NCBI GenBank assembly: GCA_027048265.1
Contig: JALTXS010000102.1
Span: 1-45,777 of the forward strand
From: Desulfurococcales archaeon
GTDB taxonomy: Archaea > Thermoproteota > Thermoprotei_A > Sulfolobales > Fervidicoccaceae
Direction: 5' to 3'
Length of the DNA stretch: 45,777 bases
Each line of letters begins with the position of its first letter. Positions within the stretch are counted from its first letter, which is position 1. The notes beneath the pieces are model-generated. The model was given only the letters and a program-made list of their open reading frames with translations. It ran no database searches and had not been told where the DNA came from. Of this stretch, positions 1 through 1,688 are shown piece after piece. The translations under genes were made by a program, and so were the position numbers.

Positions 1-1688
1 CTCTTTTCACGTATGACTGCTGCTGTAAGCCCAGCTGCAGAGCTTCCCTTGCCAGTTGTGTACACGCCTCGAGGCGCTATCTTGCTGACATACTGGAGTA
101 GCTGACTATTATGCATAAAGATTCCCTGGGGCAAGACGAGGAAGTTCTCGTCATTTTCAACACTGATGTCGTATACATAGTCGTAGGCAGGGTTGGTTAG
201 AGTAACCTTTTCCACAGGCACGTATATAACCTGTCCCTCCTCTAGCTTGGGTAGAAGGTCGCCTATTTTTAGGTCAGCACCTTGCACAGGCTGCAACATA
301 TTCCCTCTCTTAACTAGGAAGCTGTGGTCCAGTGTCGCCTGGACCCGGGTGCCGTCTTTTAGAAGTACCTCCACCATGGCCCCTGGTGAGTTGTGTCTGA
401 TAAATGCCCGGATTTTTGACCACCTAGGTGTCCCGGTACCAGGTTCTATGGAGAGGGTGTAATACTCATATCCAACCCTATCTGTGCGGAAAACCTCCGT
501 GCCGTCACTGCTGACCTCAATCTCTTCCCTATGCTCTTCCATTAGATAATCAGTCACTTTAGCAATGTCTGCCCAGGTCTCGGAGCCCGGCTCTCCTTTG
601 CTCAGAAGAATCATGGTGCCCGGGGGAACGCTCTTAGCGGTTCCCGGGTCCCCTACTAACAGAATGTGTATGTCTCCCCTTATCCTCATCTTGTCCTGCG
701 TTTCCTTAGGTACTCCACCAAAGAGGGCTAGTGCTATCGCTTCCTTTATGTCCCATAAGCCATAGATGCCGGGGGCTATGCTTGTTATAATCTTCTTTCT
801 TATCCAGGGGTCTCTTGCCAGCTCGAGTATCTTCTGCTCGTCCTCGCGGGTTATCTCAACCTCCTCGAGCGTCTTTTGGCTCACCTCTAGGCCAATTACT
901 TCAAGGAACTTGTCGTAGACGGGGAGTGTCTTCTTAACCGGGTTCTGTATCCTTAGCACGCCCACAGCACTTATACGATCCCCTGGCCTTGCCCTGTCTA
1001 CGAGGTCCCTGCTCACAATGGCTTCCACACTCCTGGGTATCTGGCCGGGTGGGACCTCCTCCGGTCTCTCCTGTATCACTATTTTCTGCCAGTCAACATA
1101 CCTGCTCTTTTCTGGAACAAGTCTTATGTTGCCTGGTCTCTGGCACTTGGGGCAGAATGGAGGGGTTTCGAGCGTCTCGCCAATCTCACCTTCTTCAGGC
1201 CACTCGAACTCTGCCCCGCATTTGGGGTCCATGTGCTTGAAGACGGCCTTCACCATCTTCTCTTTTACGGGCGTCGCCCTCACTAGTATGCCTTCAACCA
1301 TTACTAGCCTGTTTATAAACTCGCTTCCCAGCTTTCGTATAGGTGTCGCTCTGAGAAGCTTAACAATTCTTACAAAGAACCTATCATGCTGTTCGAGGTA
1401 CTGGGGGTTCGTGTTTGACACGACGCTGGTCAGGGCATTGTTAAACAAGGGGAGCATACCATCGGGGTCTCTCTCAAGTTGTAGTGCAAGCGTGTGATCG
1501 TAATGGTAAAGGTCGGGAAAGTCCACATGAATAGAGTATTCGCCAGATGACATCATCTGCTTTATGCGCTCCATGTACTTGCGCTCTCCCGAAGGCGTCG
1601 TATATTCTCTAAGAAACTGTGCGAACTTCGCCTCGTAATCCATCTCTTCTAGAAGAGCTTCACTATCAAACCCTGTGTCCTCACCCAT
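1..1688 (-). CDS. mcm: MCM replicative helicase, 5' two-thirds (3' end runs off the left window edge); interrupted by an in-frame mini-intein
   Basis: Absent from the ORF track because it is open at the edge. Hand translation of the minus frame from ATG 1688 gives [22 protein letters not shown]... It has a Zn-finger region (KCGAEF..FCPKCQ) and a Walker A read as [15 protein letters not shown][175 aa][35 protein letters not shown]. I met no stop codon where I checked base by base (3..659) or in the quicker read of the rest. Confidence 0.93.
   Translation of the reverse strand, partial: [562 protein letters not shown]
108..632 (-). mobile_element. Mini-intein (175 aa, Hint domain only) inserted in the MCM P-loop between K and S of GDPGTAK|S
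   Basis: Codon-by-codon translation gives [10 protein letters not shown]... (block A, Ser1), [16 protein letters not shown] (block B, TxxH), [15 protein letters not shown] (block F) and GIFMHN followed by +1 Ser (block G). There is no room for an endonuclease domain. Removing it restores the canonical [14 protein letters not shown]. Confidence 0.85.

What the first reader, a model, noticed from the sequence alone, without database searches (positions are those of the whole stretch)
108..632. In-frame 175-aa mini-intein splits the MCM Walker-A P-loop, in a gene the ORF track does not show
I translated the minus strand base by base from 659 down to 3. The helicase reads [15 protein letters not shown], then 175 residues, then [31 protein letters not shown]. 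Removing the insert recreates the universal MCM P-loop GDPGTAKSQ. The insert has all four Hint splicing blocks: A ([10 protein letters not shown]), B ([10 protein letters not shown], i.e. TxxH), F ([15 protein letters not shown]) and G (GIFMHN, then +1 Ser). At 175 aa it has no space for a LAGLIDADG or HNH homing endonuclease, so it is a mini-intein. Both nucleophiles are Ser (Ser1 and Ser+1) rather than the more common Cys. An essential replicative helicase therefore depends on protein splicing at its ATP-binding site. P-loop MCM inteins are known in some archaea, so the class is not new, but this copy needs its own check.
Basis: partly seen in the sequence, partly recalled or inferred. Interest (0 to 1): 0.75.

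Follow-up and report, generated by a model that had tools for sequence, protein, structure and literature searches.

The report
Serine-type mini-intein in MCM P-loop
The replicative helicase gene of an uncultured hot-spring-type archaeon is interrupted, exactly inside its ATP-binding loop, by a small self-splicing protein element (a 175-residue mini-intein). The reading is correct, but this is an ordinary new member of a well-known class.

Summary
On the minus strand, window 1688→3 is one open frame encoding an MCM helicase. Codons 353-527 (window 632→108) are a 175-aa insert between the Walker-A Lys (GDPGTAK) and Ser (SQLLQYVS).

The insert is a Hint domain: Pfam PF14890 at 53 bits, and a PDB profile search hits only inteins. 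An AlphaFold model (pLDDT 92) superposes over its whole length on the Pab/Pho CDC21-1 and TFIIB mini-intein crystal structures (TM 0.85). There is no endonuclease domain.

All class-1 catalytic residues are present: Ser1, Thr100/His103, Asp155, His174-Asn175 and Ser+1. The [R]-His "NX" motif specific to serine-type inteins is present too.

Longer contigs identical to the window show a full precursor of 1101 aa with a second 229-aa intein downstream, outside the window. Removing both inteins gives 697 aa, gap-free against intein-free orthologues. Against a 90%-identical relative, the intein shows 50.5 synonymous versus 18.5 non-synonymous changes (dN/dS 0.08), so it is functionally constrained.

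MCM-a (P-loop) inteins, including minis, are long known. Ser1/Ser+1 copies at this site recur in uncultured Thermoproteota. Verdict: interpretation supported; new member of a known kind; low to moderate interest.

The parts
108..632 (-). Intein-1: a 175-aa class-1 mini-intein (precursor residues 353-527) at the MCM-a / Walker-A site
   Evidence: Translation. Pfam PF14890 E 3.6e-14. PDB sequence and profile hits are inteins only. AF2 model pLDDT 91.8. Foldseek TM 0.85 to 5o9i, 6rpp and 6rpq.
630..632 (-). Ser1 codon (AGC): the N-terminal nucleophile (block A, [10 protein letters not shown])
   Evidence: Read directly from the sequence. Invariant in alignments A2 and A3.
495..497 (-). Glu46: the conserved Glu in the strand preceding the NX motif
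   Evidence: Invariant in A2. Its role is taken from Pasch et al. 2023, PMC10189870.
393..398 (-). Arg79-His80: the NX motif ([R/K]-His), the signature of Ser1 oxyester inteins
   Evidence: Codons AGA CAC. R79 and H80 are invariant in A2, and H80 is invariant in A3. They align with the IRH of PI-PkoII. The motif is defined in PMC10189870.
324..335 (-). Block B: Thr100-Leu-Asp-His103 (TxxH)
   Evidence: Codons ACA CTG GAC CAC. T100 and H103 are invariant.
168..170 (-). Block F Asp155, within [15 protein letters not shown]
   Evidence: Invariant V153-Y154-D155. Aligns with YVYDLSVEDNENFLV of PI-PkoII.
108..113 (-). Block G: His174-Asn175 (CAT AAT). Asn175 is the residue that cyclises.
   Evidence: Invariant in A2 and A3.
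105..107 (-). Ser+1 codon (AGT). It is the Walker-A Ser of GDPGTAK-S and the C-extein nucleophile.
   Evidence: Aligns with the Walker-A Ser of all intein-free orthologues.
633..1688 (-). N-extein: MCM residues 1-352 (N-terminal domain, OB fold, and the start of the AAA+ domain up to the Walker-A Lys)
   Evidence: Pfam MCM_N, MCM_OB and MCM. 70% identity to the intein-free Fervidicoccus-type MCM P0001.
1..107 (-). First 35 residues of the C-extein (SQLLQYVS...AAVIREK), cut by the window edge. The gene continues for 539 more codons outside the window, which include intein-2.
   Evidence: The continuation was read on L002, which is identical to the window over 13,537 bp.

Best explanation
Window 108-632 (-) encodes a genuine, splicing-competent class-1 mini-intein of the serine (oxyester) type. 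It sits at the classical MCM-a site, directly after the Walker-A lysine of the replicative helicase MCM. The host is an uncultured Desulfurococcales/Fervidicoccaceae-related archaeon.

Shown by the data:
- In-frame insertion at K352|S528.
- Hint fold with no endonuclease domain.
- All catalytic residues present and conserved in relatives that are 31-39% identical.
- Strong purifying selection, with the same synonymous divergence and the same GC3 as the host gene.
- A second intein further downstream in the same gene.

Inferred mechanism, from the established class-1 pathway:
1. The precursor cannot bind or hydrolyse ATP because GDPGTAK and S are 175 residues apart.
2. The Ser1 hydroxyl, polarised by the NX-motif His80 and helped by block-B Thr100/His103, attacks the Lys352 carbonyl (N-O acyl shift).
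3. Ser+1 (S528) takes over the N-extein by transesterification.
4. Asn175, aided by His174 and Asp155, cyclises to succinimide and releases the intein.
5. An O-N shift rebuilds the peptide bond and recreates the Walker-A loop GDPGTAKS.

The downstream intein must also splice to give the 697-aa helicase. Without a homing endonuclease the element is no longer mobile. It is inherited vertically and is kept intact because any loss of splicing would inactivate MCM.
For: - Frame and junctions.
- Host identity: (MCM_N, MCM_OB, MCM P-loop).
- Hint domain: (PF14890, 53.3 bits against a cut-off of 35.8). (PI-PkoII 1.9e-12, TFIIB, Pho RadA and CDC21-1 inteins). (profile: 25 of 25 hits are inteins, best 3.4e-33, and 6rpp at 2.6e-16).
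- Structure: (pLDDT 91.8, pTM 0.86). (5o9i TM 0.85; 6rpp PabCDC21-1 TM 0.85/0.89, rmsd 2.0 A over 175 columns; 6rpq TM 0.85). The match covers the whole chain, so there is no extra domain.
- Catalytic residues: S1, E46, R79, H80, T100, H103, D155, H174 and N175 are invariant in A2. All but E46 and R79 are also invariant in A3.
- Spliced product: 697 aa, the same length as the intein-free P0001, and gap-free at both junctions against five orthologues.
- Selection: window versus L006, intein-1 has 50.5 synonymous and 18.5 non-synonymous changes, dN/dS 0.08, dS 0.61. The exteins have dS 0.50.
- Composition: GC3 is 0.566 in the intein and 0.57-0.59 in the exteins.
- Site identity with known MCM-a inteins: PMC6801210, PMC10643990, PMC4760082.
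- NX motif and the Ser1 mechanism: PMC10189870.
Against: - No experiment. Splicing itself is inferred from sequence, a predicted structure and selection.
- The high-confidence model was built with an alignment of only 10 sequences, nine of them site-c/d MCM inteins (19-28% identity). The single-sequence model was useless (pLDDT 41).
- dN/dS of the intein (0.08-0.19) is several-fold higher than that of the exteins (0.01-0.05), as usual for inteins.
- Whether this is the only MCM gene in the genome was not checked.
- The closest library relatives are only 31-39% identical (37% in the library search; 39% in alignment A2), so the conservation argument rests on few sequences.
Confidence: 0.93

Rival explanations
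1. The intein is more than a tolerated parasite. It is a conditional-splicing switch (temperature, ATP/DNA, metal or partner dependent) that controls when the replicative helicase becomes active. This would resemble what is proposed for the Pho RadA, mycobacterial DnaB and T. kodakarensis RadA inteins. The idea is compatible with the best explanation and adds a regulatory layer to it.
For: - The position inside the ATP-binding loop makes precursor activity all-or-none.
- Two inteins sit in one essential replication gene.
- Both have been retained under purifying selection across about 0.6 synonymous substitutions per site.
- There is literature precedent for conditional splicing in replication and recombination proteins (titles and abstracts; PMC4760082).
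Against: - Nothing in the sequence points to a sensor. The intein has no Cys, so a redox switch is impossible, and it has no extra domain.
- Purifying selection is equally expected for a purely selfish intein in an essential gene.
- Close orthologues (P0001, P0004, P0005) do without it.
Confidence: 0.12
2. The insert is a decayed, non-splicing intein remnant. Either the gene is a pseudogene, or the insert stays in the mature protein as a loop.
For: - Mini-inteins are what remains after endonuclease loss.
- The intein evolves faster than the exteins.
- Library relatives are at most 39% identical.
Against: - All nine catalytic or signature positions are intact and invariant in relatives.
- dN/dS is 0.08 on 69 substitutions.
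- There are no frameshifts or stops in any of three diverged lineages.
- The exteins are under extremely strong constraint (dN/dS 0.01), which is incompatible with a pseudogene.
- A 175-residue domain between the Walker-A Lys and Ser would abolish nucleotide binding (established AAA+ biochemistry).
Confidence: 0.03
3. The element is still mobile: an actively homing intein recently acquired by horizontal transfer.
For: - The distribution among related MCMs is patchy. P0001, P0004 and P0005 lack it, while P0121 and P0122 have it.
- HEN-bearing Ser1 inteins exist at the same site in other Thermoproteota.
Against: - There is no endonuclease domain.
- GC and GC3 are identical to the host gene.
- The intein's dS equals that of the exteins.
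- Intein identity falls in step with extein identity: 71/40% for P0121 and 64/31% for P0122. This is what vertical descent with occasional loss would give.
Confidence: 0.02
4. The insert is an assembly, chimera or frame artefact of the contig.
For: None beyond the generic risk that comes with metagenome assemblies.
Against: The same 1101-codon open gene was recovered in ENA, NCBI and Logan assemblies from different samples and in a GTDB species-representative MAG. It appears at 100%, 97.4% and 89.4% nucleotide identity.
Confidence: 0.005

Closest known systems
PabCDC21-1 / PhoCDC21-1 mini-inteins of Pyrococcus MCM (PDB 6RPP, 6RPQ; Beyer et al. 2019, PMC6801210)
   Same: - Same host protein and same insertion point, in the P-loop directly after the Walker-A Lys.
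- Same size class (164 and 168 aa against 175 aa) and no endonuclease.
- Hyperthermophile-type extra segment between blocks A and B.
- The predicted structure superposes with TM 0.85-0.89 and rmsd 1.9-2.0 A.
- The profile E-value to 6rpp is 2.6e-16.
   Different: - The Pyrococcus inteins use Cys1 (the crystallised variants carry C1A mutations). This one uses Ser1 and contains no Cys at all.
- It carries the R-H NX motif of oxyester inteins.
- Structure-based sequence identity is only about 20-22%.
- The host is a crenarchaeon (Thermoproteota), not Thermococcales.
Haloarchaeal MCM-a inteins (InBase CDC21-a; PMC10643990, PMC4760082)
   Same: [quoted passage not shown]
- Often co-resident with a second MCM intein.
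- 19 of 64 Haloferacales MCM-a inteins are minis.
   Different: - Most halophile copies carry active LAGLIDADG endonucleases and move between strains.
- No close sequence similarity was detected here: none appears among the best 150 library hits that I resolved as MCM.
Ser1/Ser+1 P-loop inteins of uncultured Thermoproteota MCMs (library proteins P0121, P0122, P0190, P0123, P0152, P0157, P0171, P0174, P0212 and others)
   Same: - Same site and same Ser1/Ser+1 chemistry, with ...HN|SQ(L/I)L junctions.
- P0121 (174 aa) and P0122 (175 aa) share the SVPxxT start and the size.
- P0122 has the same two-intein architecture, and P0121 carries both of these inteins plus a third one.

   Different: - They are only 31-39% identical to the window copy.
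- Most members (390-505 aa) still carry a LAGLIDADG domain and begin SLxYSEP.
- These are unannotated metagenomic proteins. I found no publication describing them.
PI-PkoII (Tko Pol-2, PDB 2CW7/2CW8) and other characterised Ser1 inteins (Psp Pol-1, Mja/Mvu TFIIB, PolB16)
   Same: - PI-PkoII is the best PDB sequence match (1.9e-12 for the single sequence, 3.4e-33 for the profile).
- Shared IRH NX motif, TxxH, and YVYD(L/I)SVExxENFLV block F.
- Ser1 oxyester mechanism. The NX His is experimentally essential in Psp Pol-1, Mvu-M7 Pol-3 and PolB16 (PMC10189870).
   Different: - The host proteins differ (DNA polymerase B, TFIIB).
- PI-PkoII is a 537-aa intein with an endonuclease.
- In the PolB16 intein the block-B His is dispensable, an exception that is not known to apply here.

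Membership tests
Class-1 intein (Hint / intein splicing domain) | In-frame insertion in a conserved host motif whose precise removal restores the host sequence | tested here: met
   K352|S528. Removal gives [15 protein letters not shown], gap-free against P0001, P0004, P0005, P0025 and P0084.
Class-1 intein (Hint / intein splicing domain) | Nucleophile (Cys/Ser/Thr) at position 1 and at +1 | tested here: met
   Ser1 (AGC, 632-630) and Ser+1 (AGT, 107-105). S1 is invariant in A2 and A3.
Class-1 intein (Hint / intein splicing domain) | Block B TxxH, block F Asp, and block G penultimate His plus terminal Asn | tested here: met
   T100, H103, D155, H174 and N175 are all invariant in A2 and A3.
Class-1 intein (Hint / intein splicing domain) | Significant match to the Hint/intein profile and HINT fold | tested here: met
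   PF14890 at 53.3 bits against a cut-off of 35.8. The PDB profile search hits only inteins. Model pLDDT 91.8. Foldseek TM 0.85 to three mini-intein crystal structures.
Class-1 intein (Hint / intein splicing domain) | Autocatalytic excision with extein ligation | not testable with these tools
   Supported only indirectly, by dN/dS 0.08 and intact catalytic residues.
Class-2 / class-3 inteins (considered) | No N-terminal nucleophile (Ala1). For class 3, also the Trp-Cys-Thr triplet with a block-F Cys. | tested here: not met
   Ser1 is present. Block F position 4 is Asp155, not Cys, and the intein has no Cys at all. It is therefore not class 2 or class 3.
Mini-intein | No homing-endonuclease domain between blocks B and F | tested here: met
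   - Only 51 residues lie between H103 and D155.
- No LAGLIDADG or HNH Pfam hit at E<=0.1.
- The alignment to PI-PkoII jumps from chain residue 121 to 490.
- The model is a single HINT domain.
MCM-a (CDC21-a) intein allele | Insertion immediately after the conserved Walker-A lysine of MCM | tested here: met
   GDPGTAK|S. The site definitions come from PMC10643990, PMC4760082 and PMC6801210.
MCM-a (CDC21-a) intein allele | Common descent with the described MCM-a inteins (Pyrococcus, haloarchaea) | tested here: inconclusive
   The closest relatives are Ser1 MCM-a inteins of uncultured Thermoproteota. Similarity to Pab/Pho CDC21-1 (E 8e-6 single sequence, 2.6e-16 profile) is no greater than to inteins of other hosts such as PI-PkoII, TFIIB and Rpb1.
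Ser1 oxyester (cysteine-independent) intein subgroup | NX motif: His preceded by Arg/Lys upstream of block B, with a conserved Glu in the preceding strand (Pasch et al. 2023) | tested here: met
   E46 and R79-H80, 23 residues before H103. They are invariant in A2, H80 is invariant in A3, and they align with the IRH of PI-PkoII. The His80-Ser1 distance in the model could not be measured with the tools.

The most novel reading that the evidence does not exclude
The two completely or largely cysteine-free, serine-type inteins in this single MCM may be retained as a post-translational gate. In this reading, helicase activation in a hyperthermophile depends on temperature- or partner-dependent oxyester splicing at the ATP site. 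Separately, the 175-aa, naturally Cys-less, thermophilic Ser1/Ser+1 mini-intein could be a useful new scaffold for redox-independent protein ligation.
Probability: 0.1. Interest if true: 0.5.

Novelty: new member of a known kind. Interest (0 to 1): 0.22.

Why it matters
For annotation, it matters that this MCM is a 1101-aa two-intein precursor. It is not a fragmented or aberrant helicase, and gene callers and domain pipelines will otherwise split the P-loop domain.

Biologically, it adds a divergent member to the MCM-a allele. It is at most 39% identical to anything outside its own species group among 1.84 billion representative proteins. It also documents that in Thermoproteota this allele uses Ser1/Ser+1 chemistry with the recently defined NX histidine.

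Practically, naturally cysteine-less thermostable mini-inteins are sought for protein ligation under oxidising conditions.

None of this changes current understanding of inteins or of MCM.

Tried and rejected
- **Word-indexed protein search.** With the intein alone and with the five-sequence intein alignment A2 it returned nothing. The exhaustive HMMER search did find relatives, so the null results reflect index sensitivity, not absence.
- **Locus scans with the single intein.** The metagenome-contig scan and the viral-contig scan found no relative. The genome-contig scan found one locus, L006.
- **Single-sequence AlphaFold model.** Unusable (pLDDT 41), so it was not searched. It was replaced by the alignment-based model.
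- **Exact-sequence look-up.** The full MCM precursors are not in the clustered collection, and the RFC-S cluster carries no names. The organism name therefore comes only from the L006 record title.
- **Rfam scan of the window.** Nothing reached the gathering threshold.
- **Novikova et al. supplement.** It would list crenarchaeal MCM inteins, but it is not held.
- **Considered and rejected:** class-2 or class-3 intein, bacterial intein-like or Hedgehog domain (HN plus a +1 nucleophile and extein restoration argue for a true intein), pseudogene, recent horizontal acquisition, and assembly artefact.
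Full report
**1. Observation**

Reading the minus strand and translating window 1688→3 gives 562 codons with no stop. The product starts [10 protein letters not shown]... and carries the Pfam MCM_N, MCM_OB and MCM P-loop domains.

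At residue 352 the Walker-A motif breaks off after GDPGTAK. Then follow 175 residues, from S353 VPPGTMILL to GIFMHN527. The helicase then resumes with S528 [30 protein letters not shown].

The codon positions are Ser1 = 632-630, Asn175 = 110-108 and Ser+1 = 107-105.

The gene does not appear in the ORF list because it runs off the left edge of the window. There is nothing odd about the gene itself.

**2. The whole gene**

A look-up of the neighbouring RFC small subunit (window 2545-3537) returned five contigs. L002 (ENA, 280 kb) and L004 are identical to the window over their whole overlap (13,537 and 4,062 bp, 0 mismatches; window position 1 = L002 position 7457).

On these contigs the MCM gene is 1101 codons. 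It holds two inteins:
- intein-1, residues 353-527, the finding;
- intein-2, residues 606-834, 229 aa, inserted at HEAMEQQ|S...VVLHN|TVSIAKAG. This lies outside the window.

Deleting both gives 697 aa, exactly the length of the closest intein-free orthologue, P0001 (a Fervidicoccus-type MCM, 70% identity). The alignment has no gap at either junction against five intein-free MCMs, including a Saccharolobus islandicus MCM.

**3. What the insert is**

*Sequence.* Pfam Intein_splicing scores E 3.6e-14 and 53.3 bits against a curated cut-off of 35.8. phmmer against the PDB finds PI-PkoII (1.9e-12), the Mvu and Mja TFIIB mini-inteins, the Pho RadA intein and the Pyrococcus CDC21-1 (MCM) intein. A profile of intein-1 with four relatives hits 25 PDB sequences at E<=1e-3. 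All are inteins, the best at 3.4e-33.

*Structure.* The single-sequence AlphaFold model was useless (pLDDT 41). With a 10-row alignment (A3) the model has pLDDT 91.8 and pTM 0.86.

Foldseek against the PDB returns mini-intein crystal structures over the full chain:
- Mvu TFIIB: TM 0.85;
- PabCDC21-1 (6RPP): TM 0.85/0.89, rmsd 2.0 A over 175 columns;
- PhoCDC21-1 (6RPQ): TM 0.85;
- Pho RadA: TM 0.81-0.82.

*No endonuclease.* No LAGLIDADG or HNH family is detected. Only 51 residues separate the block-B His from the block-F Asp. The alignment to the 537-aa PI-PkoII skips that protein's residues 122-489. The insert is a mini-intein.

The roughly 30 extra residues between blocks A and B correspond to the insertion described as typical of thermophilic inteins (PMC6801210).

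**4. Catalytic equipment**

Alignment A2 holds the window copy, its L001 variant and three library relatives at 31-39% identity. In it the invariant positions include S1, E46, R79, H80, T100, H103, V153-Y154-D155, H174 and N175. S1, H80, T100, H103, D155, H174 and N175 are also invariant when intein-1 is aligned with nine MCM inteins of the downstream site (A3).

These are the class-1 residues:
- block A nucleophile (S1);
- block B TxxH (T100, H103);
- block F Asp (D155);
- block G His-Asn (H174, N175).

R79-H80 with E46 matches the "NX motif". Pasch et al. 2023 found this motif to be specific to Ser1/Ser+1(Thr+1) inteins and essential in PolB16, Psp Pol-1 and Mvu-M7 Pol-3 (PMC10189870).

Intein-1 contains no cysteine at all. 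It is not class 2 or class 3, because Ser1 is present and there is no block-F Cys.

**5. Is it functional?**

Three diverged versions of the gene exist:
- the window (= L002 and L004);
- L001 and L003, 97.4% nucleotide identity to the window;
- L006, the GTDB species-representative [quoted passage not shown], 89.4% nucleotide identity, with a 90%-identical intein.

All three keep the 1101-codon frame and both inteins.

Nei-Gojobori counts for the window versus L006:

| Segment | Synonymous | Non-synonymous | dS | dN/dS |
|---|---|---|---|---|
| Intein-1 | 50.5 | 18.5 | 0.61 | 0.08 |
| Intein-2 | 65.5 | 34.5 | 0.61 | 0.11 |
| Exteins | 172 | 9 | 0.50 | 0.01 |

The 23 variable positions in intein-1 avoid every catalytic or signature residue.

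GC and GC3 of the intein (0.505 and 0.566) equal those of the exteins. The intein is therefore an old resident that is selected to keep working. This is what is expected if a splicing failure would destroy the P-loop of the helicase.

**6. Relatives and distribution**

The word-indexed protein search found MCM orthologues, best in Fervidicoccus and Fervidicoccaceae. In the 14 best hits that were aligned, inteins occur only at the downstream site and never in the P-loop.

The exhaustive HMMER search of 1.84 billion representatives found 647 hits at E<=1e-3, none above 37% identity. The two best are MCMs with a same-size mini-intein at the same site:
- P0121: 174 aa, SVPSNT...VFLHN|SQ. This MCM has three inteins.
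- P0122: 175 aa, in a 1097-aa MCM with the same two-intein architecture as the window gene.

Fourteen of the best 150 hits are MCMs with a P-loop intein. All 14 begin with Ser1, and all 12 whose C-terminal junction could be located also have Ser+1. Most are 390-505 aa and carry LAGLIDADG domains.

Identity to the window falls in parallel for extein, intein-1 and intein-2: P0121 71/40/52% and P0122 64/31/45%. This fits vertical descent with losses in lineages such as P0001. A proper phylogeny was not made.

The next-best relatives are inteins in Rpb1-type RNA-polymerase subunits and other hosts. The splicing domain therefore belongs to the general Ser1 intein pool.

**7. Comparison with what is known**

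MCM is the most frequent intein host in archaea, with 116 inteins and site a in the P-loop (PMC4760082). [quoted passage not shown] The PabCDC21-1 (164 aa) and PhoCDC21-1 (168 aa) P-loop mini-inteins have crystal structures and splice (PMC6801210).

The window copy differs from those in three ways:
- It uses Ser1 instead of Cys1, is Cys-free and carries the NX motif.
- Its host is a Desulfurococcales/Fervidicoccaceae-type crenarchaeon.
- It has low sequence identity to anything described.

Ser1/Ser+1 inteins themselves are well characterised (PI-PkoII, Psp Pol-1, TFIIB). The downstream intein-2 belongs to the Ser1 group that includes Tko CDC21-2, Smar MCM2 and Hwa MCM-4 (VS[R/K]H...TPEH). I did not verify which site letter (c or d) applies to it.

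**8. Verdict**

It is a bona fide class-1, serine-type mini-intein at the MCM-a site. It is almost certainly splicing-competent, immobile and vertically inherited.

It is a new, divergent member of a known kind. Interest is low to moderate (0.22). A regulatory (conditional-splicing) role is not excluded, but nothing found here supports it.

Noticed in passing
L002 6643-7329 (-), just outside the window (about 130 bp beyond window position 1): The same MCM gene carries a second intein of 229 aa at HEAMEQQ|S...VVLHN|T. It is Ser1/Thr+1 with a KH NX motif. At the usual endonuclease position it has an insert of about 75 residues, mostly helical by its sequence, containing two Cys (...KCPRPFT...DSCRANMP...). 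This insert is conserved in the Fervidicoccaceae relatives P0002, P0003, P0009 and P0014 and has no endonuclease Pfam hit. What the insert does is unknown.
   Followed up: partly
Library protein P0121 (1623 aa): A related MCM (71% extein identity) has three inteins: the P-loop mini-intein, a 530-aa Cys1 LAGLIDADG intein at AAGL|C...HN|TAAV, and the MEQQ|S intein. It shows how heavily this clade's MCM is colonised.
   Followed up: partly
window 1735-2316 (-), 2545-3537 (+), about 3566-5002 (+); L002 1-868: Replication genes are clustered. A GINS subunit (Sld5 family, E 3.3e-5) lies 46 bp upstream of MCM on the same strand. RFC small and large subunits are transcribed divergently. A Cdc6/Orc1 gene lies a few kb beyond MCM on the longer contig. 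The RFC-S gene, a common intein host with a P-loop site, has no intein here.
   Followed up: partly
window 15902-18121 (-), 43573-44850 (-): aEF-2 and aIF2-gamma are GTPases, and aIF2-gamma is on the published list of frequent archaeal intein hosts. Both are intein-free in this window. In the part of the genome seen here, the inteins are confined to MCM.
   Followed up: no
window 18194-19318 (-): A 374-aa DHH-family protein lies next to aEF-2. It could be a RecJ/GAN (Cdc45-like) nuclease, which would be a partner of the MCM-GINS helicase. Only the DHH N-terminal domain was detected.
   Followed up: no
Library proteins P0125, P0127, P0129, P0130, P0133: After the two MCM mini-inteins, the closest relatives of intein-1 are inteins inside Rpb1-type RNA-polymerase largest subunits. 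Several of these proteins hold two or more inteins with LAGLIDADG domains. Their organisms are unknown.
   Followed up: no
Tools: Neither the window's own MCM precursor nor any P-loop-intein MCM was returned by the word-indexed protein search or the exact look-up. The exhaustive search, by contrast, found 14 such MCMs. Null results from the indexed search should not be read as absence.
   Followed up: yes
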